A DNA stretch of 64,000 bases from a virus (Duplodnaviria > Caudoviricetes), in IMG/VR virus record IMGVR_UViG_3300020045_015293, positions 24,641 to 88,640 of that record, one strand, 5' to 3'. The notes under the pieces are model-generated. The model was not told the DNA's origin, did not search any database, and saw only the letters and a program-made list of their open reading frames with translations. Within the stretch, counting starts at the first letter, position 1. The number at the start of each line of letters is the position of its first letter. Below, one piece after another: positions 19,470-45,725 of the stretch. The position numbers and the translations under genes are program-made.

Positions 19470-19640
19470 ATGGCTAAAAAAGAAGGCGGTGGTAAAGGTA
19501 AAAAAGGTAATAAAAAATACGGCCGCGAAATTAAAAAAAGATCAAATAGAGGAAGTACAATTTCTTTATTTGTTCGCAACAGAATTACTGCTGAAGAATA
19601 TTTTAGAAAAGCAGGATTATCTCTAAAAAGAGATAAATAA
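19470..19640 (+). CDS. small basic protein (56 aa, MAKKEGGGKGKKGNKKYGR...), not in the ORF track
   Basis: Read directly; K/G/R-rich; lies immediately before the Y RNA-like element. Confidence 0.6.
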   Translation: MAKKEGGGKGKKGNKKYGREIKKRSNRGSTISLFVRNRITAEEYFRKAGLSLKRDK

Positions 19641-19724
19641 ACAGGCTCCGGAAGTCGTGAGTTCGAGTCTCACCTTGGCCCGAAAGGGCTGAGTAGCTCA
19701 GTTGGTAGAGCGCCGGACTAGGTT
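19639..19724 (+). ncRNA. yrlA: YrlA-type bacterial Y RNA / circularly permuted tRNA mimic
   Basis: Order: tccgg, T-arm gtgag-ttcgagt-ctcac, acceptor-like hairpin cttggcc-cgaaag-ggctgag, D-arm gctc-agttggta-gagc, ccgga; Ro60 gene at 32798. Confidence 0.75.
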
Positions 19725-19788
19725 ATCAATTAACGAGGACGTTAGTGCACGCCTACAATGCAGTAATGCAAGAGGATAACCGCAAATT

Positions 19789-20044: not shown

Positions 20045-20118
20045 CGAGGTAACGCATAAATGATGGTGCACCTGCCTTCCAAGTAGGAATAGAGCCGGTT
20101 TGATCCCGGTTACCTTGA
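20045..20118 (+). tRNA. trnG: tRNA-Gly(TCC)
   Basis: cctgc-cttccaa-gtagg. Confidence 0.8.
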
Positions 20119-24813: not shown

Positions 24814-25052
24814 AAAGTTCTTTGAAGACAAGAACCTGATAACTAACAGGCACTTTTAAAAGTTAGGAAACAGGGAATATGCGGTGCCAGCATGTGGATA
24901 GCTACTAAATAATATTAAAAGTAGTTCCGGTGAAAGGATGTTTCACAACCAATCACTGAAAAAATAAAAATGAATAATAGAACGTTTTGGACGTCTGAAC
25001 GACAGCTCGAAAGAGTTATTACGGTTCCCTATTATTCATTAACTTGATTAAA

Positions 25053-25172
25053 ATTATTAGGTGGTAATGAGTAGAGTTACATCGCGTGGAATGGTTCCAC
25101 ACCCAACTCAGGATTAGGCTCTGCCGTTCAATTCGGCCAGTTAATCTCTACCAAATTTTCCCCTAAAATAAT
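25053..25172 (+). ncRNA. UACAUCGC-motif RNA, copy A (contains a T-arm-like hairpin)
   Basis: ttagg/cctaa, tggtaat..aaattttcc internal loop, gtagag/ctctac, ttacatcgc; gccg-ttcaatt-cggc. Confidence 0.6.
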
Positions 25173-25176
25173 TATA

Positions 25177-25257
25177 AATTATTGGATGGTTATAAATCAG
25201 TTTCATCGCTAATGGTCAATTTGCAAAAAATACTGATTTAAATTTTCCTCCAAAATT
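25177..25257 (+). ncRNA. UACAUCGC-motif RNA, copy B
   Basis: ttgga/tccaa, tggttat..aaattttcc, aaatcagt/actgattt, ttcatcgc. Confidence 0.6.
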
Positions 25258-25262
25258 AATTT

Positions 25263-25335
25263 GGCCCTGTCGAATAATGTGTTAGTTCGTTGCCCTTTCA
25301 CGGCAAAAATTTCGGTTCAAATCCGTGCGGGGCTA
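25263..25335 (+). tRNA. trnE: tRNA-Glu(TTC)
   Basis: ttgcc-ctttcac-ggcaa. Confidence 0.85.
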
Positions 25336-25357
25336 CTAAAAGAAAAAGGTTGCGTAA

Positions 25358-25945
25358 ATGAATATATTAAAATTAGATGATTTACCTCTATATGACTTAG
25401 GTAATACAATTCAAATATCAGGAATGATATTACAAGGTAATGATAAAACTTACAATGTATTTTTTCCAGATAAAAAAATTGAGAATCCTGAATTAGTAGA
25501 AGTAAATGAAGATGAATGGAAAAAATTGTTGCTACAATTAGATACTTTAGAAACAGTTTTATTTCCAGGTAATCCAGGTGCTAAAATAGTTGTACGTAAA
25601 TCTCAACGTATAATCGAATCAGCAATGATTTGGAAAGTTTTTAGGAGAGATAATTATACTTGTCAGTATTGTGGTGCAAGAGATAAACCATTGTCAGTTG
25701 ATCATGTAGTTCTTTGGGAAGATATGGGTGGAACTGTTGAAGAAAATTTATTAACTGCATGTTCTGCATGTAATATGAAAAGAGGTAATATGAGGTTTTT
25801 AGATTGGTTGGATAGCGATTATTATAATAAATGTTTGAAAAATTTTGGTAATGAAGATCAACAATATAATCAAGATAAAAAATTGTTAGATTTTTGGATA
25901 ATAGCAAGAGATTTACCATTACGTACAAATAAAAGAGGGAGGTAA
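25358..25945 (+). CDS. HNH endonuclease family protein
   Basis: VFRRDNYTCQYCG...SVDHV...GG...NLLTACSACNMKRG. Confidence 0.85.
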   Translation: MNILKLDDLPLYDLGNTIQISGMILQGNDKTYNVFFPDKKIENPELVEVNEDEWKKLLLQLDTLETVLFPGNPGAKIVVRKSQRIIESAMIWKVFRRDNYTCQYCGARDKPLSVDHVVLWEDMGGTVEENLLTACSACNMKRGNMRFLDWLDSDYYNKCLKNFGNEDQQYNQDKKLLDFWIIARDLPLRTNKRGR

Positions 25946-25947
25946 TT

Positions 25948-26232
25948 ATGAATACTATATTAATAATACTTTGTAGTTGTTTATTTCTTATTCAGTTAGG
26001 ATTAATATTAAGATATTTTAATATTGAAAAAAATAATGATTGGAATTTTTTAGGACAAGGAGGATTGGTAAATTTAATTGCATACCCTATAATGGTATGG
26101 ATAATGTTTTTAATGTGGAAAGAAAGTGAGAATTATTATAAAAAAATAGTTGAAAAAAATAAAATAGAACAAAAATATTCACCAACTTATACTTCAGAAA
26201 AGGGGGATACTTTGTTTACAAGAGTAAAATAA
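25948..26232 (+). CDS. hypothetical membrane protein
   Basis: Two hydrophobic segments. Confidence 0.5.
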   Translation: MNTILIILCSCLFLIQLGLILRYFNIEKNNDWNFLGQGGLVNLIAYPIMVWIMFLMWKESENYYKKIVEKNKIEQKYSPTYTSEKGDTLFTRVK

Positions 26233-26236
26233 ATAT

Positions 26237-26304
26237 GGAGGGGTAGCTCAGAGTAGAGCACTGTCTAAACAACAGGGGTCGGTAATTCAGTTTGCCCCCT
26301 TCCG
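26237..26304 (+). tRNA. degenerate tRNA (Asp-like acceptor, AAA in anticodon loop)
   Basis: ggagggg/cccttcc, G73; ctgt-ctaaaca-acag; irregular T-arm. Confidence 0.45.
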
Positions 26305-26327
26305 CAATAATTAGTTCTTTAAAATAT

Positions 26328-26380
26328 GGAGATGAATGTTTGTAATAGAACATTTTGGTTATTCGGTTAATCCATCTCCA
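26328..26380 (+). ncRNA. mini tRNA-like hairpin element
   Basis: ggagatg/catctcc+A, one internal hairpin aatgtt/aacatt, ttcgg loop. Confidence 0.35.
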
Positions 26381-26386
26381 CTACAT

Positions 26387-26499
26387 GCCGGGAAAGCAAA
26401 AACATACTGTTTTAAACTTTCCCCGAAAGGTGGTAACTAAACAGTTACATCGCAATACAATCAACATTTGTTAAGATTCCCGCAAGGGTCCCGGCACCA
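26387..26499 (+). ncRNA. UACAUCGC-motif RNA, copy C: circularly permuted, closed by acceptor-like stem with ACCA end
   Basis: gccggga/tcccggc-A-CCA; actgtttt-aaactttcc-cc-gaaa-gg-tggtaac-taaacagt-tacatcgc. Confidence 0.6.
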
Positions 26500-26505
26500 T
26501 TTTGA

Positions 26506-26597
26506 AACATTCGCGCCTGATGGTTAATGATCATTAAGACTGTGAGGCTAGCAGTTGACCCCAACACTTAAGTCAGTGGGGTATGGCGACGAATGTT
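26506..26597 (+). ncRNA. unassigned cloverleaf-like RNA
   Basis: aacattcgcgcc/ggcgacgaatgtt closing three hairpins. Confidence 0.45.
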
Positions 26598-26601
26598 AAA
26601 C

Positions 26602-26676
26602 AGCCACGTAGTTTACTGTGTGTAATCGGGAAATTGTCGATTTCCGTCGGGGCGAGTTCGATTCTCGTCGTGGCTG
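26602..26676 (+). tRNA. trnD: tRNA-Asp(GTC)
   Basis: ggaaa-ttgtcga-tttcc; G73. Confidence 0.8.
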
Positions 26677-26686
26677 CATATATTTA

Positions 26687-26779
26687 TACACCCACAGAAT
26701 GAATCTAACTTAAGGGTACTAGTAAAAACTTAAGGTAATGCGTTTGAAATTTGGTTCAGGTTTCGCCTGTGTGGGTGTA
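26687..26779 (+). ncRNA. unassigned structured RNA directly after an ATATTTATA box
   Basis: tacacccacag/ctgtgtgggtgta terminal stem. Confidence 0.4.
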
Positions 26780-26844
26780 TAAAAATCTCAATGTGTAAAT
26801 TAACTAGTGCATGACACCGTAGCGTAGAAAGTTGAGATGAATAT

Positions 26845-26918
26845 ACTGATATAGCTCAGAGGTTTAGAGCAGGATGCTTATACCATCAAGGTCGGGATTT
26901 CAAAATTCTCTATCAGTA
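26845..26918 (+). tRNA. trnI: tRNA-Ile(TAT)
   Basis: gatg-cttatac-catc; acceptor actgata/tatcagt, A73. Confidence 0.75.
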
Positions 26919-26935
26919 CAACAAAATTTTTATAT

Positions 26936-27015
26936 CGTGGGGGAGTGGAAAGGACACACAAACCATTCAAGCCTCATAAGCTTTGAGATAGCCAGTTCGA
27001 TTCTGGTCCCCGCAA
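26936..27015 (+). tRNA. trnM: tRNA-Met(CAT), initiator-like (C1:A72 mismatch), enlarged D-loop
   Basis: Loop ctcataa; cgtgggg/ccccgca. Confidence 0.75.
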
Positions 27016-27099
27016 CAAACTATTCTTATAATAGTATGAATTGGAAAATAAATTTCCAATTAAAAAACTCCCGAATTCATTCTTGATATAGGGGAGTTA

Positions 27100-27171
27100 T
27101 GGCGCAGCCTCAGGTGAGGAATTTTGGCTCATATCCTAAATTAGACATGGTTCAATACCAGTATGCGCTAC
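27100..27171 (+). tRNA. atypical tRNA(CAT), Met or Ile2
   Basis: tggcgca/tgcgcta; loop ctcatat; 4-nt D-loop; T-loop ttcaata. Confidence 0.55.
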
Positions 27172-27175
27172 ACCA

Positions 27176-27308
27176 GATGTAATAGTGTAAGCTAGAAGTA
27201 CATCAGCAATTGGGATCTTACAATCCGTGAATTGTGGTTTAGGTTAACACGAAGGTAACGAAGTGCTTTAAGTCACCTAGCAGTTAGAATACCACTAGAA
27301 GTTCTAAC
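27176..27308 (+). ncRNA. unassigned pseudoknot-rich RNA
   Basis: gatgta/tacatc with loop tgtaag pairing cttaca; gtggt/accac; gttagaa/ttctaac. Confidence 0.4.
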
Positions 27309-27313
27309 AAAAT

Positions 27314-27388
27314 GCCTCTTTAGTAGTAATTGCAGCAGCTATCCGCACTTGTAATGCGGGGGTAACAGTTTGAATCTGTTAAGGGGCT
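27314..27388 (+). tRNA. trnT: tRNA-Thr(TGT)
   Basis: cgca-cttgtaa-tgcg; acceptor gcctctt/aaggggc. Confidence 0.85.
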
Positions 27389-27522
27389 CAAAGAAATTAA
27401 TATAAGTTTTATGACCCCCCTGGTTACAAACAAAATATTAGTTTCTTTACCGGTTACGGGTTTATTTTGTTGGTTTTTATCCCGTAAAAATTAAAAGAAA
27501 AACCAATAGAATTAAACCCGAT

Positions 27523-27800
27523 GTTAAACGCTGTTATAAAATTTTAGCGATGAAAGTTAAATATGTGAAATTACAAAGCGGAGAGGTAATAATGTTTCCT
27601 CCCGTTATTGAACACGATACATTCAAATACCTGAACCCAATAACGGCAGGATTTTGTTGCATCGGAAATGATAAAGTAGAGTGCTTTGGAGAAAGTTACT
27701 CACTCAAATTGAAGGCAGACGAAAAGCAAGATACATTAGATGCAACAAAACATTATTTTGGAATAGAGGCGATGATAAAAATTTTATAATTGCGTTTAAC
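27523..27800 (+). mobile_element. integron-like gene cassette (GTTRRRY ... ORF ... RYYYAAC)
   Basis: GTTAAAC 27523-27529 and GTTTAAC 27794-27800 within 23-bp imperfect inverted repeats around ORF 27550-27789. Confidence 0.55.
27550..27789 (+). CDS. hypothetical cassette protein
   Basis: KYV......IMFP..I.H...; AGFC; higher GC than neighbours. Confidence 0.6.
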   Translation: MKVKYVKLQSGEVIMFPPVIEHDTFKYLNPITAGFCCIGNDKVECFGESYSLKLKADEKQDTLDATKHYFGIEAMIKIL

Positions 27801-27801
27801 A

Positions 27802-27872
27802 GCGTCATTGGTATATTGACTGTGCCTTCGTCTCTAAAGCGAAAGAAAGGAGTTTAATTCTCTTATGACGCT
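27802..27872 (+). tRNA. amber suppressor tRNA (anticodon CTA)
   Basis: Acceptor gcgtcat/atgacgc+T; D gtat/gtgc; ttcgt-ctCTAaa-gcgaa; T-arm aggag-tttaatt-ctctt. Confidence 0.85.
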
Positions 27873-28013
27873 CTAAAATAAATTAAAAGTGTTTACCTTT
27901 ATTGTAATATGTATAGCAATAATGGAATTAATAAGGATGACACTAAAATCAATTTTTAAAAAATGAAGCGAAAACAGTAAGCTACCCTCAAGCTAAAATG
28001 AGGGATTAAGTAT

Positions 28014-28085
28014 GCCCTCGTAGCAAACAGGTGTAGGCAACAGACTTTTAATCTGTGAGGTTTGGATCGTTACCAAACGGGGGTA
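28014..28085 (+). tRNA. trnK: tRNA-Lys(TTT)
   Basis: acaga-cttttaa-tctgt. Confidence 0.85.
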
Positions 28086-28134
28086 CTGTTAAAAAATTTT
28101 TTATTTTCCAAAACTTTATATATACCTTTATATA

Positions 28135-28410
28135 ATGAAAATATATTCTAAAAGTCAATTATTTTCTAAAAATAAGGAATGGTATTGGAAAATGAACAAT
28201 GAAAATGAAGTAAGAAATATTTTAAATTATTTAGCACAAAATGGATTTATTTGGAATGGTTCAAAATGTAAAGCTAATGAATTACATAAAGTATTTGAAT
28301 TTAATTATCCTTGGTATTTAGAATATAGTGATGGTACTTTGTCATATAATATAGGAGGAGAAATTAGATCAACTCAGAGTCGTATTCATCATATTCATTT
28401 GAATTTTTAA
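28135..28410 (+). CDS. hypothetical protein
   Basis: ORF after CCAAA promoter at 28108. Confidence 0.55.
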   Translation: MKIYSKSQLFSKNKEWYWKMNNENEVRNILNYLAQNGFIWNGSKCKANELHKVFEFNYPWYLEYSDGTLSYNIGGEIRSTQSRIHHIHLNF

Positions 28411-28578
28411 TAATATGAAAAAACATGTAGCATCAACAATGATATATAAAGGTGAAATAACACAAGCAATAACTTGGTTAAATAAATTACCTAGAGAATA
28501 TCCAGTGTGGAGATTAAAAGGTATAGAAAAAGGAGATATATTAGTTTGGACTACTGAAAATGGATTAAAAATTTGGAA

Positions 28579-29052
28579 ATGAAAAAATTAGAAATTGAAC
28601 GTCGTTTTTTATTAAAAAAATTACCTGATCTAACTAAACCACATAAATTATTTATAATAAAACAATATTATAATAAAACAGAAGGTGGGGTAATAAGATA
28701 TAGAGAATCCAGAGAGTATGCAAATTTTCCTAACAAGTATGAAAAAATAATTAAGTTAAAAGTATCAAAGGGAATAAATAATGAAGAAGATTTTGAAATT
28801 GATCAATTACAATTTTTCAATGAAATTCAACAAATAAAAAATTTAAAGTCAATTAAAAAACATCGAATAGTTTTTGAAGAAAATGGATTAAAATGGGAAG
28901 TTGATAGTTTCAATGATTTAAAATTAATAATTTGTGAAGTTGAATTAAAATCACTGAAACAAAAAATTCAAATTCCTGAACATATACAAAAAGTATTAAT
29001 TAAAGAAATAACTGGGGAATATGAATTTAGTAATTATAATTTAGCACAATGA
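28579..29052 (+). CDS. CYTH-domain protein (adenylate cyclase/triphosphatase-like)
   Basis: EIERRFL, I.Q.Y, K.R, WEVD.F, EVEL, Y.FSNY.LA motifs. Confidence 0.85.
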   Translation: MKKLEIERRFLLKKLPDLTKPHKLFIIKQYYNKTEGGVIRYRESREYANFPNKYEKIIKLKVSKGINNEEDFEIDQLQFFNEIQQIKNLKSIKKHRIVFEENGLKWEVDSFNDLKLIICEVELKSLKQKIQIPEHIQKVLIKEITGEYEFSNYNLAQ

Positions 29053-29546
29053 TTAAAAAAATAACAACATTAATATTATCAAGTTTTACATCTATATTAA
29101 TGCTAGCTAATTTTAAACCATTAAATGAATTAAGATTAAAATCTAAATTTTCAACACTATTGAATGTAAGTATTAGTGAAATAAAAAATTTAAATTTTTA
29201 TGAATTTTTAAATAGTTGGTTAGGCACAAGATACAAATATGCTGGTAATACAAAATATGGAGTTGATTGTTCAGGATTTACTCAAGAAATATTTAAAGCA
29301 ATTTATAATATTAATTTACCACGTACATCACGTGATCAATTTAAAGTAAGTAATAAAATTGATAAAAGTGAATTACAAGAAGGAGATTTGTTATTTTTTA
29401 AAACAAAAGGTAAATTTATATCTCATGTAGGAATATATTTACAAAACAATAAATTTATTCATGCATCAGTAAGTAATGGAGTAATAGTATCAGATTTAAA
29501 TTCACCTTATTATAGTTCTAAATTTTATAAAGCAGGTAGAATATGA
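29049..29546 (+). CDS. NlpC/P60 cell-wall peptidase (Spr-like)
   Basis: WLGTRYKYAG....GVDCSGF, LPRTS, GDLLFF, SHVGIY...FIHAS. Confidence 0.9.
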   Translation: MIKKITTLILSSFTSILMLANFKPLNELRLKSKFSTLLNVSISEIKNLNFYEFLNSWLGTRYKYAGNTKYGVDCSGFTQEIFKAIYNINLPRTSRDQFKVSNKIDKSELQEGDLLFFKTKGKFISHVGIYLQNNKFIHASVSNGVIVSDLNSPYYSSKFYKAGRI

Positions 29547-29715
29547 AACGTTTTGTAGCAATTAGATTAGTTTCTAATTTAAAAAATATTTGTAATAGAG
29601 AAAATGTTCATCATGGATCATATTTGATGAAAGGTAGTTATAAAAGATTTATGAAATTTCAAAAATAATTTTTATGAATAAGTTTTTTACTAAAGCATCA
29701 ATAAATTTAAATAAA

Positions 29716-30075
29716 ATGAATAACTAGAAATTAATTATTATAACCAGGAAAGATTTAACACCAGGTTACCAAGCTGTACAATCAACACATGCAGCAATCG
29801 ATTTTTGTTTTAAATACCCAGATATAGCCAAAGAATGGCATTAGGTATCAAATTACTTATGTCAAGTATCATGTGAAAATGAAGAACACTTAAGAAAATA
29901 TGTGTTAAAAGCTAAACAAAGAGGAATTGAATATATTGAATTTTATGAACCTGATATAAACAATGAGTTAACAGCTATTGCTTTAGAACCAGGTGAAAAA
30001 AGTAAAAAATTAATTTCAAACTTACCACTAATGTTAAAAGGATATAATAATGAAAGTTTGGATATCAAAAATTGA
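29716..30075 (+). CDS. Pth2-like peptidyl-tRNA hydrolase with two in-frame TAG codons (codons 4 and 43); absent from the ORF track
   Basis: MNN*KLIIITRKDLTPGYQAVQSTHAA...EWH*VSNYL...FYEPDINNELTAIALEP...NLPL; TAG at 29725 and 29842, TGA stop at 30073. Confidence 0.8.
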
Positions 30076-30232
30076 AACAGAAGATTGTGAAGAATATTAT
30101 TTAGGTTTTAATTCACAACCAACTGAAAACCAAGTAAAAAAAGAATTTTTCAAAGATCATGGAAATATTTATGAAGAAGAAGATTGGGGAGTTTGTATAT
30201 CACATGATATATTTGAAGTTGAAGTAATATGA
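30050..30232 (+). CDS. hypothetical acidic protein
   Basis: ORF. Confidence 0.5.
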   Translation: MKVWISKIETEDCEEYYLGFNSQPTENQVKKEFFKDHGNIYEEEDWGVCISHDIFEVEVI

Positions 30233-30312
30233 TTATACTTTATATAATAATAGGAATTGGAGTAATATTTCAAGGATATTTATTAATTAAAGATGTTTTG
30301 AAAAAATAAAAT

Positions 30313-30386
30313 GGCTCTGTAGCCCAACGGGAGAGGCAATAACCTTAGGAGTTATCAAGGTGTCGGTTCGAATCTGACTAGAGCTA
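30313..30386 (+). tRNA. trnL: tRNA-Leu(TAG) with short variable region
   Basis: ataac-cttagga-gttat; A73. Confidence 0.8.
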
Positions 30387-30395
30387 CTATATAAT

Positions 30396-30469
30396 GGTCC
30401 TGTAACCCAACTGGAAGAGGTAACAAACTTAAAATTTGTAAAGTGTCGGTTCGAATCTGATCAGGACTA
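30396..30469 (+). tRNA. trnL: tRNA-Leu(TAA) with short variable region
   Basis: acaaa-cttaaaa-tttgt; A73. Confidence 0.8.
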
Positions 30470-30474
30470 CTAAT

Positions 30475-30563
30475 GCCTAGATGGTGAAACTGGCAGACAC
30501 AAATCATTCAAAATGATTCGACCGATAATAAAGGTTTTGAAGGTTCGACCCCTTCTCTAGGTA
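30475..30563 (+). tRNA. trnL: tRNA-Leu(CAA)
   Basis: aatca-ttcaaaa-tgatt; long variable arm. Confidence 0.85.
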
Positions 30564-30575
30564 CTAATAAAATAT

Positions 30576-30809
30576 ATGAAAATATATCCTCCACTTGTAA
30601 TTAAAGCCTATGAATTTACTGATGGATGGAGCAATTGGGGTTATGGTTGGTTTGTATTGGGAATGAAACGTCCTTGTAAATGGCTTGGTAAAAATTTTAA
30701 ATATAATAATATTACTTATCATATTGATTTATGGAGTGATAATATTATTACTATATCAAGAGAAGAAAAAATAATTTTTCGTTTTCTAAAATTTATTATT
30801 CAAAAATGA
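30576..30809 (+). CDS. hypothetical protein
   Basis: ORF. Confidence 0.45.
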   Translation: MKIYPPLVIKAYEFTDGWSNWGYGWFVLGMKRPCKWLGKNFKYNNITYHIDLWSDNIITISREEKIIFRFLKFIIQK

Positions 30810-31360
30810 TCAAACTAAAAGATATATTATTAGAAAAAAAAGGGGATAAATATGAAACTGGAGCAGTTGTATTAAATGTTATTATTCCAAAACAATTGCT
30901 TCATTCCAAAATATCTAAAGAAGATTTATTTCAAGAAGAAGGAGATAGGACTTATGGTATTGAAGATGAACCTCATATAACTTTATTATTTGGATTACAT
31001 AGTGATGAAATAATAGATAATGATATTAAAAAATGTATTTCTGAATTTACATTTCCTGAGTTAATACTTCATAATGTTTCATTATTTAATAATGATAATT
31101 ATGATGTATTAAAATTTGATGTACTTGATAAAAGTAAAACATTAGTTAAATGTAATGTTGCTTTAAAACAGTTTCCATATAGCAATGATTATCCTGAATA
31201 CCATCCTCATTGTACTATAGCATATATTAAACCAGGATTGGGTGACAAATATGTTAAATTATTTAAAAAATTAAAATTTGTTGTAGAACCAGAATTATGT
31301 ATATATAGTAAACCTGATGGTTCAAAGCAAAAATTTGGAATTTCCAAAGTTCGTTTTTAA
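30806..31360 (+). CDS. 2H phosphoesterase, T4 gp57B/Acb1-like, with MIKLKDILLE N-terminal leader
   Basis: Two HxT motifs (EPHITLLFGLH, YHPHCTIAY). Confidence 0.8.
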   Translation: MIKLKDILLEKKGDKYETGAVVLNVIIPKQLLHSKISKEDLFQEEGDRTYGIEDEPHITLLFGLHSDEIIDNDIKKCISEFTFPELILHNVSLFNNDNYDVLKFDVLDKSKTLVKCNVALKQFPYSNDYPEYHPHCTIAYIKPGLGDKYVKLFKKLKFVVEPELCIYSKPDGSKQKFGISKVRF

Positions 31361-31381
31361 TTTTATAAAAATATAAAGGTT

Positions 31382-32044
31382 ATGGAACAAAACATTCAAG
31401 AAAAATATACAAATTTATTAAATGAATTATATCGTTCATTTGATTTTTTTAATGAATTTTTTTGTCAAGGAAAATTAAATAAACCAATTATTACTACACA
31501 AGGTGAAAAGCGTAAAGGTAAAACTTGGGGATGGTTTGGAAAAGATTTTTGGACTGAACATAGTGGTGAAGAACATAATAAATTAAATGAAATTAATTTA
31601 ACTGCTGAATCATTACATAGAGAACCAAATGCTGTTTTATGTACTTTATTGCATGAAATGGCTCATTTAAAAAATTCTCAAGAAGGTATTTTTGATTGTA
31701 CTACAACTCAATATCATAATAAAGAATTTAAGAAAACAGCTGAATTTTTTGGATTGATTGTTGAAAAGATGAAAGCAAGAGGTTGGGCAACAACTACATT
31801 AGGAGAAAAAGCATTAGGTGCTATTGAATTATTAAAACCTGATGTTTCATTATATAAAATTGTAAGAACACCCCCTTATAAATTAGCAAAAGATCCAACA
31901 GTAATTAATTTAAATGTGTCGTTGGATTATGAAGATAAAGTTGAATATTTAACTTCAAGATATGGTAAAAAACGTGAAATGACTGAAGCTGCAATTGATA
32001 TGTTATATCAACATGAAAAAAGTCCTAAACCAGAATATGTATAA
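31382..32044 (+). CDS. SprT-like zinc metalloprotease domain protein
   Basis: TLLHEMAH...H (YHNKEF). Confidence 0.8.
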   Translation: MEQNIQEKYTNLLNELYRSFDFFNEFFCQGKLNKPIITTQGEKRKGKTWGWFGKDFWTEHSGEEHNKLNEINLTAESLHREPNAVLCTLLHEMAHLKNSQEGIFDCTTTQYHNKEFKKTAEFFGLIVEKMKARGWATTTLGEKALGAIELLKPDVSLYKIVRTPPYKLAKDPTVINLNVSLDYEDKVEYLTSRYGKKREMTEAAIDMLYQHEKSPKPEYV

Positions 32045-32450
32045 AATAATAGTTAAAGGTGAAGCTAAAACTAGATATCCTAATTTACAAGAATTAGATG
32101 GTATAGATTGTCAAGATAAATTTTCTGATTATTTTGATGATAAAAGATGTGGTTCATTTAAAGGGGATGTAACTAATGGTTACATGAGATTTGAATTTAG
32201 CAATGGTAAATTATGGACAATAACTGAATATTTATCAAAACGTGAATTAAGTGAACAAGAATTAGATACTTTAAAAGATTATACAATTGGACAATGGAGT
32301 GATGGCATTGGTGAAGGATTTGAACAACAACCCTGTATGGAAGGAAATGAAGAATATGATGTAAATGAAGATGGGGAAATGGGTACTGAAGTATATATTT
32401 CACCTTGGTCAAGAGAACAAGTAACAACTATTGAGCAAATAACACAATAA
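32037..32450 (+). CDS. hypothetical protein
   Basis: GQWSDGIGEGFEQ motif; start moved to MYKIIV. Confidence 0.55.
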   Translation: MYKIIVKGEAKTRYPNLQELDGIDCQDKFSDYFDDKRCGSFKGDVTNGYMRFEFSNGKLWTITEYLSKRELSEQELDTLKDYTIGQWSDGIGEGFEQQPCMEGNEEYDVNEDGEMGTEVYISPWSREQVTTIEQITQ

Positions 32451-32454
32451 AAAT

Positions 32455-32757
32455 ATGAATACAAGTAATTACATTAGAAAATTTCATTATATAGATGCAC
32501 CAATGGCTAAAATAGCTACTGATTGTGAAAGACCTACAAAAGAATTAAGGCCTGAACCAATTAATGGTGAAACAATACCCGAACCCAAAATCCGTGAAAT
32601 AAATATCCAAGCAATGGATCATGGATTTGTTGTAAGAGTAGGTTGTCAAACATTTGCAATTGAAGATGCTCAAAAATTAATGAATAATTTAACAGCATAT
32701 TTAAAAGATCCTGGTGGAATGGAAAAACAATGGATGGGTTCCAAAAAATTAAATTAA
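32455..32757 (+). CDS. GC[QGE] family protein
   Basis: HGFVVRVGCQTFAIE. Confidence 0.55.
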   Translation: MNTSNYIRKFHYIDAPMAKIATDCERPTKELRPEPINGETIPEPKIREINIQAMDHGFVVRVGCQTFAIEDAQKLMNNLTAYLKDPGGMEKQWMGSKKLN

Positions 32758-32797
32758 GTCAACAATAATATTCTTTAATATAAAAATTAATAGTAAA

Positions 32798-34363
32798 ATG
32801 AAATACAACAAAAAATCAATGACTGCTGTATCAACAGTACAAACACATCAAGGTGGAATGGGTTTCCAACTTGAACCAAAATTAGAATTAATTGCATTAC
32901 TTGCTTCAGGTATTGAAAACAAGTATTATGAAAAAGAATCTGAACGTGAACAACGTTTAAATAAATTAGTATCAGAAATAGCTGTGAAAGATAAAAATTT
33001 TGTAGCTAAAGCATTAATATATGCTCGTACTAAAATGGGTCAACGTTCTGTTACTCATATAGGAGCAGTTAATTTAGCTAAATTTTTAAGTGGTGATGGA
33101 TTAGGTTCTCGTTTTTTCTCAAAACGTGATAGAAAAGAAAATAAAGGAGGAATAGTATTCCGTTTAGATGATATGCTTGAAATAGCAGCATGTTATCAAG
33201 CTAAAAATCCAAATACAAAAACAAGAAAAAATGGATCACCTTCAATGACATTGCCAAATTCTATTAAAAAAGGATTTAAATCAGCTTTAGAAGCAGCTGA
33301 TGAATATGAATTAGCTAAATATCAAGGTAAAACAAGAGACATATCATTAGTTGATATTTGTAATTTGGTTCATCCTAAGCCATCTAAAAAAATGGTACCA
33401 GTATTTAAAAAATTGATGAATGGTGAATTAAAACAATTTAATACTGTTGAAGATAAAAACTCTGCTGCTGGGCAAGAAGTGGCTGCAGCGATTGCAAGTG
33501 GAGAAATGAGTGCAACTGAAGCTAAAGTTGCTTTACAAGAAGCAAAAGAAGAAAATTATGCTGAACTAATAAGAAATAAAAAAATTGGTTATTTAGCATT
33601 ATTACGTAATTTACGTAATATTTTAAAAAATACCACTGATAAAACACTTATTAATGATGCTTGTGATTTATTAACAGATGCTAAATTTGTAAGAAATTCA
33701 TTAGTGTTTCCTCACCAAATTGATATAGCATTAGAAATAATGTTATCTGAATTTGGAGTTTCAAAAATGGGTAAATTTGCTACTGCTTTGAATACAGCAT
33801 ATGAATTAGCAATTCCAAATTTAACTGAATTATTTACTTCAGGTAAAACTGCAGTTGTATTTGATTCTTCAGGTTCAATGAGTGCATCTATTATGTTAAG
33901 TAATAAAAGTAGAGGTAGCGAAGCTGCTTTAGATAAAGCTGTTTTAATAGCTGCTACTTTAGCTAAAGGTATAGGTGCTGATGTTTATACATTTGCAAAT
34001 AATTGTCATTCTATTTCTTATAATCCAGGTGATACTGTTAATACTTTGAAGAAACATTTTAAATCTAGTGCTCATGCTGGAGGAGGAACATATTTTGGTT
34101 CAATATTCCAAGTTTTAGGAACTAAATATGATCGTGTATTTGTTATTTCAGATGAACAAGGTGCTGATTCATTAGAAAGAAGTTCATATTCAAATACTCA
34201 TATTTACTCTATAAATTTATGTGGTTATGGAACTACAATGTTTAAACCAGGTAATAAAGTTTATAGATTATTTGGATATGGAGCTGATATATATGAATTA
34301 ATTAAAAAAGTAGAAGTAGATCCTAAAGCAATATTAGCTGAAATTGAAGCAATTCAAATATAA
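32798..34363 (+). CDS. rsr: Ro60/TROVE-domain RNA-binding protein with C-terminal vWA domain
   Basis: THQGGMGF, R...G.RS, YEL.KY, LVHPKP, ALLRNLRN, FDSSGSM MIDAS, GGGT, VISDEQ. Confidence 0.92.
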   Translation: MKYNKKSMTAVSTVQTHQGGMGFQLEPKLELIALLASGIENKYYEKESEREQRLNKLVSEIAVKDKNFVAKALIYARTKMGQRSVTHIGAVNLAKFLSGDGLGSRFFSKRDRKENKGGIVFRLDDMLEIAACYQAKNPNTKTRKNGSPSMTLPNSIKKGFKSALEAADEYELAKYQGKTRDISLVDICNLVHPKPSKKMVPVFKKLMNGELKQFNTVEDKNSAAGQEVAAAIASGEMSATEAKVALQEAKEENYAELIRNKKIGYLALLRNLRNILKNTTDKTLINDACDLLTDAKFVRNSLVFPHQIDIALEIMLSEFGVSKMGKFATALNTAYELAIPNLTELFTSGKTAVVFDSSGSMSASIMLSNKSRGSEAALDKAVLIAATLAKGIGADVYTFANNCHSISYNPGDTVNTLKKHFKSSAHAGGGTYFGSIFQVLGTKYDRVFVISDEQGADSLERSSYSNTHIYSINLCGYGTTMFKPGNKVYRLFGYGADIYELIKKVEVDPKAILAEIEAIQI

Positions 34364-34423
34364 CTTGCAGGAAGACCGTACCGAGTATTGGAGAAGGATT
34401 TTTAACCGATTAAATAACGAAAA

Positions 34424-34660
34424 ATGATAACAGAACAGGATTTACACGAATACAATAAATGGCTAATGGAAGTTTGGAATCCAAAACAACTTAACATACC
34501 ATTTGCTATTGATGCACCGAAGGCATTTTTAGACCACAGAAGCAAGGTTAAAAATCTTTCTTCCAATACTTTGTTAGGTGATAGTTTGCCGATTAAAAGC
34601 AACTGCCCTGACTGTGGAACTGAATGTGATAATGTGATACACTTTTGCCCGAAGCGATAA
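34424..34660 (+). CDS. hypothetical protein with C-terminal CPDC...C zinc ribbon
   Basis: ORF with higher GC than flanks. Confidence 0.5.
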   Translation: MITEQDLHEYNKWLMEVWNPKQLNIPFAIDAPKAFLDHRSKVKNLSSNTLLGDSLPIKSNCPDCGTECDNVIHFCPKR

Positions 34661-34712
34661 TGTTAAGGCAAATTTCACCTAACGCTCGGATTTAAATTGA
34701 CAGGAGGTTCAT

Positions 34713-34741
34713 ATCCCCTTGGAATATAGGGGATATTTTTT
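34713..34741 (+). terminator. intrinsic terminator
   Basis: atatcccc/ggggatat hairpin followed by T run. Confidence 0.65.
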
Positions 34742-35007
34742 AAAATTATATAAATTAAGTATTAAAGAATATTTTAAAATAAAAAGTTATGAAAAATAAA
34801 AATATTAGAAGAATATTATGTATAATTGGAATAATAATTGCTATAATTGGAATAATTTTTCATTTTCCTCCATTAGATATGATTTTTTGTATAATTGGTG
34901 GAGGTATGACAGGGTATTTTTCATTTGATTTATTTTAAATTTTTGATATATTTATATATGAAAAATAAATTTATGGAGAGAACAATAGGATAGATAAGAC
35001 CGCCTTA

Positions 35008-35092
35008 AAATAATTTAGTAGTGATATAAGTGTTACATCGCTAACCAAAACAATGAGAAATATACACTTATAAATTTTCTCTAAACTTATTT
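35008..35092 (+). ncRNA. UACAUCGC-motif RNA, copy D
   Basis: aaataatttag/ctaaacttattt, tagtgat..aaattttct, ataagtgt/acacttat, tacatcgc. Confidence 0.6.
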
Positions 35093-35112: not shown

Positions 35113-35592
35113 ATGAATAAAATATTTAAAACATTAGGAACAAGAGAAGAAGTTGACTTAATACCATATATTACAGAATATTTAATTAAATATCCAGAAA
35201 CTGAAATATTAATTGGTTGTGATTCTCAAAATAGAAAACGCAATACTGTATATGCAACTTGTGTAGTATTATATAGGCCCCAAAAAGGTGGTCACGTATT
35301 ATATGCACGTCAAGAATTACCAAGAGTACGTGTTATTAAAGGTGAATTTGATAAAATGCGTTTATTAAATGAAACTTGGTTTTCAGTAGAAGTAGCTGAA
35401 GCAATTAGAGAAGGTGTTGGTAGAAGGGCAACATGGATTGATATTGATATAAACAATGACAAAAAATGGAAAAGTAATACTGTATTAGCAGAAGCTTTAG
35501 GTTTAGTAACTGCATATGGATATTCACCAAGGTATAAAAATTCTCAATTTACACCTGTTGTAACATATTGTTGCGACAACTTAGTAAAGTAG
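35113..35592 (+). CDS. RNase H-like YkuK/DUF458 family protein
   Basis: ILIGCDSQ, GGHVLY, RLLNE.W.SVE.A, IDIDIN motifs. Confidence 0.8.
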   Translation: MNKIFKTLGTREEVDLIPYITEYLIKYPETEILIGCDSQNRKRNTVYATCVVLYRPQKGGHVLYARQELPRVRVIKGEFDKMRLLNETWFSVEVAEAIREGVGRRATWIDIDINNDKKWKSNTVLAEALGLVTAYGYSPRYKNSQFTPVVTYCCDNLVK

Positions 35593-44474: not shown

Positions 44475-45725
44475 ATGGAATGGTTTGCTTTATTAGTGCC
44501 ATTATTTATTGTAGGTTTATTAGTAGTTATATTTAAAAAATCATTTACTTGGTGGGAAGTAAGTTTACCTTTAATATCAACTGTTATTATAATATTAATT
44601 ACTAAATTAATAATAATTTCTAGTAAAACAAAAGACACCGAGTATTGGGGTTCAATGATAGTTGAGGCTAGGTATTATGAATATTATGAATCATGGGTTG
44701 AAAGGACTTGTTCATATACTACTACTTGTTGTTGTGATGATAAAGGAAATAACTGTCAAACAATTACACATTATTACGATTGTTCTTATTGTGATAATAA
44801 TTCTGCATATTGGGAAGTTAGAGATGATGTAGGGAATGTTTGGGGAATTTCTGAAAAATATTATAATTATTTAAAAAATAGGTGGAAATCAATTCCTGAA
44901 TTTGTTGAATTAAATAGAAATATTGATTATTATGGTTCTTGTGGTGATGATGGAGATATGTATAGAATTAAATGGAAGGGTGAAATTGAAACATCTGAAG
45001 CTGCTGTAACAAAACATACTTATGAAAACAAAATACAATCTTCAAAATCAGCGTTTAAATTTGAAAATATTTCTAATAAAGAAGCATTAAAATATGGTTT
45101 ATATAAATATCCTAAAATATATAATTATTATAAACAAAAAGTAATACTTGGATTAGATAGTTTACCTGAATATAAAATTGATATGGAAAATATTGAAACT
45201 TATTACCAATATTTTAATGGGTCAAGAGGAGCTAAAAATAAAGTAAAAATATTTATATGTTTATTTTTTGATAAATCATTAAGTGTTGTACGAAAACAAC
45301 AAGCCTATTGGGATGGAGCAAATCAAAATGAGTTAATAATTTGTATTGGATTAAATAAACAAATGGTTAATGATATAAGAAAATTAGATTGGGTTGAAGC
45401 ATTTAGTTTTACTAATAATAAACGAGTATTAGTTGATTTAAGGGAAGATATCATGAGTTTAGAATCATTTCAACCTTATAATATATATGGTATAATTGAT
45501 AAATCTATAGGTAATAATATAATGTACCGTGATTTTAAAAAGGATTTTAGTTATTTAAAAGTTGAATTATCTAGAGGAAATATAAGATTAATTTATATAT
45601 TGTCTTTTATTATAACTTTAATATCTTGTTTTTATTGTTTAACCAATGAATTTGGTGAAACATTAGATGAATATAACATTAAACAAAGATGGAATGAATT
45701 TATAGATAAAATATTAAAAAAATGA
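44475..45725 (+). CDS. membrane protein with Cys-rich extracytoplasmic region
   Basis: Two N-terminal and one C-terminal TM; CSYTTTCCCD...CQ...C..C. Confidence 0.6.
   Translation: MEWFALLVPLFIVGLLVVIFKKSFTWWEVSLPLISTVIIILITKLIIISSKTKDTEYWGSMIVEARYYEYYESWVERTCSYTTTCCCDDKGNNCQTITHYYDCSYCDNNSAYWEVRDDVGNVWGISEKYYNYLKNRWKSIPEFVELNRNIDYYGSCGDDGDMYRIKWKGEIETSEAAVTKHTYENKIQSSKSAFKFENISNKEALKYGLYKYPKIYNYYKQKVILGLDSLPEYKIDMENIETYYQYFNGSRGAKNKVKIFICLFFDKSLSVVRKQQAYWDGANQNELIICIGLNKQMVNDIRKLDWVEAFSFTNNKRVLVDLREDIMSLESFQPYNIYGIIDKSIGNNIMYRDFKKDFSYLKVELSRGNIRLIYILSFIITLISCFYCLTNEFGETLDEYNIKQRWNEFIDKILKK

What the first reader, a model, noticed from the sequence alone, without database searches (positions are those of the whole stretch)
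25053..35092. New four-copy ncRNA motif (UACAUCGC) with covarying stems, in the Ro60 neighbourhood
Seen at 25053-25172, 25177-25257, 26406-26453 and 35008-35092: outer stem, internal loop U(G/A)GU(A/U/G)A(U/C) opposite AAA(U/C)UUUC(C/U), inner stem, then U(A/U)CAUCGC. Stem sequences differ among copies but still pair (gtagag/ctctac, aaatcagt/actgattt, ataagtgt/acacttat, aaacagt/actgttt), while the loop sequences are conserved. The distal insert is variable; copy A carries a tRNA T-arm mimic. Inference: a conserved protein-binding internal loop used as a handle on variable payloads, as in Y RNAs. Ro60 (32798-34363) is the obvious candidate partner, and copy D sits 650 nt after it.
Basis: partly seen in the sequence, partly recalled or inferred. 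Interest (0 to 1): 0.86.

Follow-up and report, generated by a model that had tools for sequence, protein, structure and literature searches.

The report
Phage Y-RNA family sharing Ro60 handle
Four small RNA genes in this uncultured phage share one conserved two-helix "handle" that sits beside the gene for the ring-shaped RNA-binding protein Ro60 in dozens of phages, so they are most likely a new branch of the known Y RNAs, each carrying a different cargo domain such as a tRNA look-alike.

Summary
All four copies lie at the stated coordinates on the + strand. They share a bulged outer helix, conserved loop strands, a covarying inner helix and the U(A/U)CAUCG tail. Copy C is a true circular permutation. 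No Rfam family matches. A covariance model built from copies B and D alone finds copy A and homologues in related phages. Across 35 distinct sequences, 93.7% of pair cells pair, and 13 of 14 pairs show compensatory changes.

The family consensus is G-U(bulge)-R-G-UAA, then UAC(U/A)UCG after a fixed spacing, opposite AUUC-Y-C. It carries four cargo types: a short loop, a tRNA-like D-anticodon-T body, a permuted YrlA-type T-acceptor-D body, and an inverted form inside an acceptor-stem RNA.

Motif-first searches of IMG/VR gave 48 handle-positive contigs, 29 of them with a TROVE gene, against 0 of 40 controls. Among near-complete genomes the count is 9 of 10 against 0 of 12, and the tenth keeps a Ro60 remnant. 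Copies lie on the Ro60 strand, mostly within 5 kb, across Ro60 proteins only 28-70% identical. These include crAss-like phages and cultured crAss001.

I read it as a new Y-RNA subfamily. Ro60 binding is inferred, not shown. Earlier reports of this scan describe similar handle-tagged RNAs on other phage DNA.

The parts
25052..25173 (+). Copy A: handle plus a degenerate tRNA-like cargo in D - anticodon-like - T order. The acceptor stem is replaced by the inner helix of the handle.
   Evidence: Sequence; fold; R1 33.6 bits although not in the seed; R2 58.4 bits. No tRNA model hit at E<=10.
25183..25255 (+). Copy B: handle closing a 30-nt loop (short, YrlB-like class). It starts 4-10 nt after copy A and ends 7 nt before tRNA-Glu (25263).
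26387..26499 (+). Copy C RNA, the inverted class. It has a 7-bp acceptor-like stem, an A-rich linker, the circularly permuted handle (26406-26453, outer helix capped by GAAA), UACAUCGC, a linker, a CCC-GCAA-GGG hairpin, then the 3' acceptor strand plus A-CCA.
   Evidence: The same architecture with GNRA-capped handles, different covarying inner stems, and an acceptor stem plus T-arm or hairpin occurs in four other phage contigs.
35008..35092 (+). Copy D: handle closing a 30-nt loop. It lies 652 nt after the Ro60 stop and 20 nt before the RNase H-like gene (35113).
   Evidence: B and D differ at 4 inner-stem positions, and all four changes are compensated.
32798..34363 (+). Ro60 (TROVE) gene, the inferred protein partner.
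   Evidence: Pfam TROVE 6.4e-13. Full-length match (residues 14-512) to the solved Thermus phage phiLo Ro60, 9KOP/9L5Y, E = 1.7e-16.
19630..19732 (+). Separate YrlA-like permuted tRNA mimic (T arm - closed acceptor - D arm) without the handle. Listed as context, not as a family member.
   Evidence: Rfam RF02553 40.7 bits, below the gathering score of 69.
35113..35592 (+). RNase H-like (PF04308) gene directly after copy D. It is also found about 1 kb after Ro60 in the closest relatives.

Best explanation
The four elements are paralogous genes of a phage-specific Y-RNA family. All share one RNA module, the handle.

Anatomy of the handle:
- an outer helix;
- a single bulged U on the 5' strand;
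- two conserved pairs, R:Y and G:C;
- an asymmetric internal loop, 5' UAA... opposite ...(A/U)UU;
- a covarying inner helix of 5-9 bp;
- directly 3' of that helix, a nearly invariant single-stranded UAC(U/A)UCG.

Inferred mechanism: the phage Ro60 ring binds this bulged helix and its conserved loop bases, as Ro60 binds the bulged stem of other Y RNAs. Whatever is attached to the handle is thereby brought to Ro60. In this phage the attachments are a short loop (B, D), a degenerate tRNA body (A), and an acceptor-stem/CCA minihelix (C). By analogy with Deinococcus Rsr-Yrn1-PNPase and phiLo Ro60-Yrl-PNPase, the cargo would tether or gate Ro60 towards host RNA enzymes during infection. Candidates are an exoribonuclease or tRNA-recognising proteins.

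Shown here: the structure, its conservation, its modular reuse, and its genomic linkage to Ro60. Inferred: expression as discrete RNAs, Ro60 binding, and the downstream function.
For: 1. Structure. On 35 distinct sequences, 93.7% of pair cells pair (shuffles 66.4%). 13 of 14 pairs have changes on both sides. The covariation score is 0.738, against 0.203 in shuffles and 0.07-0.22 when partners are slid. The R of GURGUAA and the Y of UUCY covary without exception: 23 G:C and 12 A:U.

2. Rigid module, free cargo. The GURGU-to-UWCWUCG spacing is 12 nt in 26 of 35 sequences (range 11-15). The cargo ranges from 32 to 154 nt.

3. Connectivity-independent reuse. The same handle is found around short loops, around D-anticodon-T tRNA bodies, and around T-acceptor-D bodies of the YrlA type. 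It is also found GNRA-capped inside acceptor-stem RNAs.

4. Linkage to Ro60.
- Motif-first IMG/VR scans: 13 of 15 and 16 of 33 handle-positive contigs carry TROVE, against 0 of 24 and 0 of 16 pattern-only controls. Fisher p = 8e-11; for near-complete genomes 9/10 against 0/12, p = 2e-5.
- The single near-complete genome without TROVE keeps a 61-aa remnant of the Ro60 C-terminus just downstream of its handles.
- In the nine near-complete genomes, 30 of 37 copies lie within about 5 kb of Ro60, and 36 of 37 are on its strand.
- The linkage holds for Ro60 proteins from 70% down to 28% identity. It also holds in GenBank phages LR745206, csAssE-Sib, cr111_1 and cultured crAss001.

5. Ro60 is the only neighbouring protein shared across these loci.

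6. The Rfam YrlA model aligns globally to a T-acceptor-D member (L010:8860-8990, 31 bits). This places the handle where YrlA has its Rsr-binding stem, with GGCGAAU opposite GUGGUAAU and CUAC opposite UUAC.

7. Published precedent. Y RNAs lie within 4 kb of Ro60 on the same strand in bacteria and 22 phages (PMC4201824). The phiLo Ro60 binds two upstream Y-like RNAs (PMC12135203).
Against: - There is no expression, processing or binding data for any member.
- The handle lacks the GNCGAAN0-1G / CGAA motif that published bacterial and phage Y RNAs use. CGAA appears only in some members, where UUCG happens to be followed by AA.
- In this window the copies are less tightly linked than usual: A, B and C lie 6.3-7.7 kb upstream of Ro60, inside the tRNA region.
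- 17 handle-positive contigs show no TROVE. All are fragments estimated at 62% complete or less, including pieces of 172, 132 and 106 kb.
- The co-occurrence test is not phylogenetically controlled.
- The covariation counts were made on a model-fitted alignment.
- Several cargoes score as good tRNAs (39-55 bits). A role in tRNA biogenesis is therefore not excluded.
Confidence: 0.8

Rival explanations
1. Leader-trailer processing stems. The handle would be a double-strand processing signal, cut by RNase III or another endonuclease, that releases tRNAs or tRNA-like RNAs from the polycistronic tRNA transcript. This would resemble rRNA leader-trailer stems or the T7 RNase III sites. The linkage to Ro60 would be incidental.
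For: - The elements lie in or next to tRNA arrays.
- In relatives the cargo is often callable as a tRNA by ARAGORN or Rfam at 39-55 bits.
- The G of UACUUCG is the first paired base of those acceptor stems.
- Some cargoes end in an encoded CCA.
Against: - Copies B and D, and many relatives, have nothing to release: only a 30-nt loop.
- The inverted class (copy C and four homologues) has the handle as a capped internal arm with tRNA-like ends elsewhere. That makes no sense for a flanking processing stem.
- Only 0-2 of about 20 tRNAs per locus are embedded.
- Embedded 'tRNAs' have odd anticodon loops (G33, or an anticodon that changes between close relatives) and mismatched or missing acceptor stems.
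- They are about 50-60% identical to the free tRNA of the same anticodon, yet 85% conserved between phages as cargo.
- The tight, strand-specific linkage to Ro60 is unexplained.
Confidence: 0.08
2. The handle is bound by a different partner: another phage or host protein, or an RNA such as the phage RNase P RNA. Ro60 would only be a syntenic neighbour.
For: - Binding has not been tested.
- In this window three copies are more than 6 kb from Ro60.
- Copy D abuts an RNase H-like gene that also follows Ro60 in the closest relatives.
- Some large handle-positive fragments show no TROVE.
Against: - No other neighbouring protein is shared across the loci.
- In crAss-like phages the handles and Ro60 sit alone among unrelated genes.
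- The linkage persists down to 28% Ro60 identity.
- The architecture matches that of YrlA RNAs.
Confidence: 0.08
3. A small self-cleaving ribozyme or other catalytic or riboswitch-like RNA. Circular permutation and multiple copies per genome are typical of hammerhead or twister ribozymes.
For: Both permuted and non-permuted forms exist. About 20 conserved nucleotides are concentrated in junction and loop positions.
Against: - No hit to any ribozyme or riboswitch family even at E<=10.
- The conserved core is a two-helix internal loop plus a tail, not a multi-helix junction or pseudoknot.
- The Ro60 linkage is unexplained.
- The cargo tolerates 32-154 nt of unrelated sequence.
Confidence: 0.02

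Closest known systems
YrlA-type bacterial and phage Y RNAs (Rfam RF02553; Chen et al. 2014, PMC4201824)
   Same: - Encoded next to Ro60 on the same strand, often several per locus.
- A terminal stem with an internal loop carries a tRNA-like domain.
- Relatives of this phage have the exact T arm - closed acceptor - D arm order.
- The Rfam model aligns end to end with one of them (31 bits).
- A YUAY-like UUAC follows the inner helix.
   Different: - No element reaches the Rfam gathering score of 69 bits. The four window copies give no hit at all.
- The GNCGAAN0-1G motif is replaced by G-U-R-G-UAA, plus a second invariant block UAC(U/A)UCG.
- None of the four window copies has the T-acceptor-D order.
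- The same handle is also used in three other connectivities.
Deinococcus radiodurans Yrn1 and Salmonella YrlB
   Same: Per PMC4201824, Yrn1 has the T arm and an anticodon-like arm in the non-permuted order, with both strands of the Ro-binding helix retained. Copy A and the D-anticodon-T class are built likewise. YrlB is a short Y RNA without a tRNA-like domain that shares the Rsr-binding motif with YrlA, like copies B and D.
   Different: No sequence similarity was detected. The phage handle sequence is different. Some phage cargoes are near-complete tRNAs with an encoded CCA.
Thermus phage phiLo Yrl1/Yrl2 with phiRo60 (PMC12135203; PDB 9KOP, 9L5Y)
   Same: A phage Ro60 with small RNAs just upstream. 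Those RNAs have a stem-bulge-stem design. Binding to Ro60 and a ternary complex with host PNPase were shown there. The window's Ro60 is a full-length homologue.
   Different: The phiLo RNAs rely on a CGAA motif. Model R2 finds nothing near the phiLo Ro60 even with filters off. No tRNA-like cargo is described for phiLo.
Metazoan Y RNAs (Rfam RF00019)
   Same: A conserved helix with a single bulged pyrimidine on the 5' strand, flanked by G:C pairs, formed by the RNA's two ends. Several paralogues share the stem and differ in the loop.
   Different: No sequence match. The metazoan motif is GGUCCGA/UUGAC, and there is no tRNA-like domain.
tmRNA tRNA-like domain / acceptor-T minihelices (comparison for copy C only)
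   Same: The RNA ends form a 7-bp acceptor stem followed by A73 and CCA, next to a T arm or hairpin. There is no D or anticodon arm.
   Different: No tmRNA or tRNA model hit over this RNA. The only tmRNA hit, 10.6 bits, lies on the neighbouring hairpin at 26328-26383. There is no G3:U70, no reading frame and no pseudoknots. The body is an A-rich linker plus the Ro60-type handle.

Membership tests
Y RNA (Ro60-associated ncRNA class) | Encoded close to a Ro60/TROVE gene on the same strand | tested here: met
   - Window: all four copies are on the Ro60 strand. D is 652 nt downstream; A, B and C are 6.3-7.7 kb upstream.
- Family: 30 of 37 copies lie within about 5 kb of Ro60 in nine near-complete genomes.
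- TROVE is present in 29 of 48 handle-positive contigs against 0 of 40 controls.
Y RNA (Ro60-associated ncRNA class) | Stem with a bulge or internal loop formed by the distal parts of the RNA, carrying conserved bases, plus a variable loop domain | tested here: met
   Folds; covariation; consensus. Exception: in copy C the stem is internal and capped, not terminal.
Y RNA (Ro60-associated ncRNA class) | Physically bound by Ro60 | not testable with these tools
   No binding or pull-down data are available. This needs EMSA or RIP.
Y RNA (Ro60-associated ncRNA class) | Expressed as a discrete stable small RNA | not testable with these tools
   No transcriptome is available for this uncultured phage. 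Promoter and terminator scans were not above shuffles.
YrlA (Rfam RF02553) | Score at or above the Rfam gathering threshold (69 bits) | tested here: not met
   No hit for A-D at E<=10. The best relative scores 31 bits. A separate RNA at 19630-19732 scores 40.7 bits.
YrlA (Rfam RF02553) | GNCGAAN0-1G (CGAA) motif near the 5' end | tested here: not met
   The 5' strand reads G-U-R-G-U-A-A in all 35 distinct members. CGAA occurs only sporadically, where UUCG is followed by AA.
YrlA (Rfam RF02553) | tRNA-like domain in the order T arm - closed acceptor stem - D arm | tested here: not met
   For the four window copies: A has D - anticodon-like - T order; B and D have no tRNA-like domain; C has an open acceptor stem. 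The feature is met in relatives carrying the same handle (L010:8857-8991, L008:3818-3954, L260:5493-5623, L263).
Ro60 / TROVE protein (partner) | TROVE domain and full-length similarity to a solved Ro60 | tested here: met
   Pfam PF05731 at 6.4e-13. Residues 14-512 match the phiLo Ro60 chains 9KOP/9L5Y at 1.7e-16.
Canonical tRNA (for the cargo of copy A) | Seven-bp acceptor stem, cloverleaf detected by tRNA models | tested here: not met
   ARAGORN and the Rfam tRNA model do not call 25058-25168. The acceptor stem is absent. Only the D-like, anticodon-like and T arms remain.

The most novel reading that the evidence does not exclude
The handle is a general Ro60 address tag that phages put on tRNA bodies. 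These range from whole tRNA-like molecules with anticodon loops of Gln, Lys, Glu, Gly, Tyr, Val or Leu type to bare acceptor-CCA minihelices.

The resulting Ro60 particles would act in the conflict over tRNAs. They could be decoys or sensors for host anticodon nucleases and other tRNA-targeting defences. Alternatively they could recruit repair or degradation enzymes to damaged tRNAs. This would go beyond simple tethering of an exonuclease.

The model would explain three observations: one handle is combined with many tRNA-shaped cargoes attached at different points, the cargo anticodon loops drift, and the genes sit inside tRNA arrays next to RNA-end-healing enzymes such as the 2H phosphoesterase at 30806-31360.
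Probability: 0.15. Interest if true: 0.85.

Novelty: new variant of a known kind. Interest (0 to 1): 0.6.

Why it matters
Y RNAs and Ro60 are conserved from bacteria to humans, where Ro60 is a major lupus and Sjogren autoantigen. What the variable part of a Y RNA does, and why bacterial ones imitate tRNA, is still unsettled.

This family shows one protein-type handle joined to tRNA-shaped cargo in four different connectivities. That is close to a natural domain-swap experiment, and it argues that the handle and the cargo are independent functional modules.

The family is widespread in uncultured T4-like, jumbo, huge and crAss-like phages. It is missed by Rfam, and it causes mis-annotation: the 'tRNA-Tyr' and 'tRNA-Lys' of phage csAssE-Sib and the 'tRNA-Gln' of cr111_1 are cargo domains.

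It also occurs in cultured Bacteroides phage crAss001, whose TROVE gene is an early gene (PMC8375218). The partnership can therefore be tested at the bench.

Tried and rejected
- **Rfam.** Searches at gathering threshold and at E<=10 over all four copies gave nothing relevant.
- **GenBank phage DNA.** A blastn search with the A-C region matched only tRNA-Glu.
- **Exact motif.** The window motif CAUCGC...AAAYUUUC is absent from related loci. The family consensus differs (UACUUCG, AUUCY), so a covariance model was needed.
- **Intramolecular partner for UACUUCG/CAUCGC.** I tried pairing with the GGUG/GAUG of the 5' strand, with GUAA, and with the segment after the T arm. The registers are inconsistent between copies. 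GUAA/UUAC pairing would compete with the well-supported inner helix. I treat the tail as single-stranded.
- **Clade-controlled test.** Using another window protein (44475-45725) as a marker returned only one weak locus.
- **Window proteins.** Pfam and PHROG annotation gave no RNA ligase, kinase or PNPase next to Ro60.
- **Prokaryote genomes.** 0 of 80 pattern matches are real handles, and there is no close Ro60. The family looks phage-restricted in this sample.
- **Promoter and terminator scans.** These were not above shuffles.
- **Recent duplication of cargo.** I rejected the idea that embedded tRNAs are recent duplicates of the phage's free tRNAs. Identity is only about 50-60%.

Full report
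**Context.** The window is part of an 88.6-kb IMG/VR virus record with about 25% G+C and almost all genes on the + strand. It holds 21 ARAGORN tRNAs between 17.6 and 30.6 kb. It also holds a 521-aa Ro60 gene at 32798-34363. That gene has Pfam TROVE at 6.4e-13 and a full-length match to the solved Thermus phage phiLo Ro60 at 1.7e-16.

Reading the sequence gives the four copies as described.
- Copies A (25052-25173), B (core 25183-25255) and D (35008-35092) share one layout: an AU-rich outer helix, one bulged U, two pairs (R:Y and G:C), the strand UNAY opposite AAAYUUU, a 6-8-bp inner helix, then U(A/U)CAUCGC and a variable insert.
- Copy C (26406-26453) has the same parts in circularly permuted order, with the outer helix capped CC-GAAA-GG.
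- Inner-helix sequences differ between copies and remain complementary. B and D are 79% identical overall, and all four of their inner-stem differences are compensated.
- MFE folds reproduce the helices for A, B and D. The module fold of C costs only 1.7 kcal/mol over its MFE.
- A relaxed 5'-half signature occurs exactly four times in the window, at these sites. The full pattern has no match on the other strand or in the reversed control.
- No ORF of 50 aa or more overlaps any copy.
- No Rfam family matches, even at E<=10.

**It is a conserved family with strong covariation.**
- A covariance model built from B and D alone (R1) found copy A (33.6 bits). It also found elements in 12 phage contigs fetched through their Ro60 genes, all on the Ro60 strand.
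- A second model (R2) raised these to 50-74 bits and found many more. Up to seven tandem copies lie directly upstream of Ro60.
- On 35 distinct sequences, 93.7% of pair cells pair (shuffles 66.4%). 13 of 14 pairs show changes on both sides. The covariation score is 0.738, against 0.203 for shuffles and 0.07-0.22 for slid partners. Caveat: this alignment is fitted to the model.
- The family consensus is [outer helix]-G-U(bulge)-R-G-U-A-A ... [inner helix, often GAG/CUC]-U-UAC(U/A)UCG on the 5' side, and [inner helix]...(A/U)UUC-Y-C-[outer helix] on the 3' side.
- R and Y covary without exception: 23 G:C and 12 A:U.
- The distance from GURGU to UWCWUCG is 12 nt in 26 of 35 sequences, about one helical turn. 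The cargo length ranges from 32 to 154 nt. Two conserved blocks one turn apart on a rigid helix, with free cargo, is what a protein-binding site looks like. This last step is inference.

**One handle, four connectivities.**
- Class 1, short loop: window B and D, and L005:9364, L008:3729, L011:9680.
- Class 2, a tRNA body in normal D - anticodon - T order.
  - In relatives this is often called a tRNA by ARAGORN and Rfam (39-55 bits). Examples are Gln-UUG, Glu-UUC, Lys-CUU, Gly-UCC and Val-CAC. Some have an encoded CCA.
  - These cargoes have mismatched or missing acceptor stems. One has an anticodon that changes between close relatives (UUC against AUC), and others have G33.
  - They are only about 50-60% identical to the free tRNA of the same anticodon. 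Yet they are 85% conserved between phages as cargo.
  - Window copy A belongs here but is degenerate. Its D-like hairpin with GG, its 5-bp/7-nt anticodon-like arm and its T arm remain. The acceptor stem is gone, and no tRNA model calls it.
- Class 3, the permuted T arm - closed acceptor - D arm of YrlA: L010:8857-8991, L008:3818-3954, L260:5493-5623 and L263.
- Class 4, inverted: the handle is capped by a GNRA tetraloop and sits inside an RNA whose ends form a 7-bp acceptor stem next to a T arm or hairpin, followed by A73 and sometimes CCA.
  - Window copy C (26387-26499) is one of five such RNAs from different phages.
  - Their inner helices all pair with different sequences.

**Relation to known Y RNAs.**
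- The Rfam YrlA model (RF02553) aligns globally to the class 3 element L010:8860-8990. The score is 31 bits, well below the gathering score of 69.
- The two ends of that alignment coincide with the R2 hit. The handle falls where YrlA has its Rsr-binding stem: GGCGAAU lies opposite GUGGUAAU, and the YUAY block opposite UUAC.
- Most of that score comes from the T and D arms. It therefore shows shared architecture rather than proving homology of the stems.
- Published Y RNAs have a GNCGAAN0-1G or CGAA motif (PMC4201824, PMC12135203). This family does not.
- R2 finds nothing near the Ro60 genes of Thermus phage phiLo or Vibrio phage Va1, even with filters off.
- Both tRNA-domain orders are known in bacteria, YrlA in one and Yrn1 in the other. 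Short partners such as YrlB are also known (PMC4201824).
- New here: all of these, plus the inverted form, hang on one handle within single genomes.

**Linkage to Ro60, tested motif-first.** Two IMG/VR scans used patterns made only from the handle, AGUGGUAA-N8-13-UUACUUCG and the AGUAGUAA variant. Hits were then filtered with R2.

| Set | Handle-positive contigs with TROVE | Pattern-only controls with TROVE |
|---|---|---|
| Scan 1 | 13 of 15 | 0 of 24 |
| Scan 2 | 16 of 33 | 0 of 16 |
| Combined | 29 of 48 | 0 of 40 (Fisher p = 8e-11) |
| Estimated at least 90% complete | 9 of 10 | 0 of 12 (p = 2e-5) |

- The tenth near-complete genome (G013, 325 kb) retains a 61-aa ORF matching Ro60 residues 469-521, just downstream of its handles. 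This is a decayed Ro60 gene.
- The TROVE-negative handle contigs in scan 2 are all fragments estimated at 62% complete or less.
- In the nine near-complete genomes with Ro60, 30 of 37 copies lie within about 5 kb of the gene, where about 3 are expected. 36 of 37 are on its strand.
- Ro60 identity to the window protein in these contigs runs from 70% down to 28%.
- Of 14 proteins encoded around the window's copies, only Ro60 is present in all related loci. The RNase H-like PF04308 protein is present in the closest ones.
- The controls are unrelated phages, so shared ancestry is not excluded as a contributor. The depth of Ro60 divergence and the very different genome contexts (structural genes in crAss-like phages, tRNA arrays in T4-like and jumbo phages) argue for a functional link.

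**Named phages.**
- No cultured phage has a close Ro60 homologue (best 37.6%).
- The handle is nevertheless found directly upstream of Ro60 in the 635-kb uncultured phage LR745206.
- Three tandem copies lie upstream of the 'Ro sixty-related protein' of crAss-like phage csAssE-Sib. The GenBank features tRNA-Tyr and tRNA-Lys there are cargoes of two handles.
- In cr111_1 the annotated tRNA-Gln is a cargo.
- In cultured Bacteroides phage crAss001, two copies (38.5 and 36.2 bits) lie in the unannotated 900-nt gap just after the TROVE gene gp96. That gene is an early gene, and no partner RNA is mentioned (PMC8375218).
- None of 80 pattern matches in prokaryotic genomes is a real handle, and no close Ro60 exists there.
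- Literature searches found phage Y RNAs in general (PMC4201824, PMC12135203, PMC12282133, PMC7824862). They found no description of this handle.

**Mechanism.**
- Shown: a conserved, covarying, connectivity-independent RNA module linked to Ro60 genes.
- Inferred: Ro60 binds the bulged helix and the two conserved blocks. The cargo (tRNA-shaped, or an acceptor-CCA end in copy C) then recruits or gates other factors, as Yrn1 does for PNPase and as shown in vitro for phiLo.
- Processing is open. B ends 7 nt before tRNA-Glu, so RNase P could set its 3' end. Copy C has tRNA-like ends. D lies between a promoter-like site and the RNase H-like gene and may be cut from that leader.

**Rivals.** A pure processing stem, another binding partner and a ribozyme are each disfavoured by the payload-less and inverted copies, by the Ro60 linkage and by the absence of family hits. 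They are not excluded without experiments.

**Earlier scan notes.** After forming this reading I consulted the scan's notes.
- Other agents reported handle-tagged tRNA mimics beside Ro60 in other phages, including one report that also names crAss-like and huge phages.
- First-reader notes on this genome describe the permuted copy C and the YrlA-like RNA at 19.6 kb.
- These notes agree with what I found independently. The scan has therefore seen this kind of system before on other DNA.

**Verdict.** This is a new, Rfam-invisible variant of the Y-RNA/Ro60 partnership with unusually modular architecture. Binding and function remain to be shown.

Noticed in passing
window 19630-19732: A YrlA-like circularly permuted tRNA mimic: T arm GUGAG-UUCGAGU-CUCAC, closed acceptor, D arm, on a UCCGG/CCGGA stem. 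Rfam RF02553 scores it 40.7 bits (gathering score 69). It does not carry the handle, so this phage has a second, different kind of Y-like RNA 13 kb upstream of Ro60.
   Followed up: partly
window 26226-26300: A degenerate tRNA-like sequence starting at the stop codon of ORF 25948-26232. It has GGGG...CCCC ends, a D arm GCUC-AGAGUA-GAGC and an anticodon-like loop CUAAACA. Neither ARAGORN nor Rfam calls it.
   Followed up: no
window 26327-26380 and 26505-26596: Two further structured stretches flank copy C. One is a long hairpin closed by GGAGAUG/CAUCUCC. The other is an RNA closed by CAUUCGCGCC/GGCGACGAAUG, whose 3' strand contains GACGAAUG. That matches the published Y-RNA motif GNCGAAN0-1G, which may be chance.
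   Followed up: no
window 20045-20118: The Rfam tRNA model scores this stretch 37.5 bits, but ARAGORN does not list it.
   Followed up: no
L260 (GenBank OR575929, phage csAssE-Sib) 5635-5909; L371 (NC_055880, cr111_1) 3392-3520: Annotated tRNA-Tyr, tRNA-Lys and tRNA-Gln genes next to Ro60 are cargo domains inside handle elements. They have G33 and poor acceptor stems, so they are probably mis-annotated as decoding tRNAs.
   Followed up: partly
L370 (NC_049977, Bacteroides phage crAss001) 5854-5934 and 5948-6022, which is record positions about 96,602-96,770 on the minus strand: Two handle elements lie in the unannotated gap right after the TROVE gene gp96 of a cultured model phage. Their tail reads UUACUUCA/UUACAUCA.
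   Followed up: partly
L084 / L137 (IMGVR_UViG_3300037424_001372, 325 kb): Only a 61-aa remnant of Ro60 (residues 469-521) remains, directly downstream of three handle elements. This is an apparent recent loss of Ro60 with the RNAs still present.
   Followed up: yes
L005 12799-13194, L008 2049-2432, L009 195-576: Related phages encode a full tmRNA within a few kb of Ro60 and the handle RNAs. No tmRNA was detected in this window.
   Followed up: no
window 34790-34938: A small, very hydrophobic ORF of about 49 aa lies between a terminator-like hairpin (34711-34746) and copy D.
   Followed up: no
window 30806-31360: A 2H phosphoesterase (2'-5' RNA ligase/LigT-like, with a weak Acb1 hit) lies 1.4 kb upstream of Ro60. 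It could be an RNA-end-healing or cyclic-nucleotide-degrading enzyme. It is not conserved next to Ro60 in relatives.
   Followed up: partly
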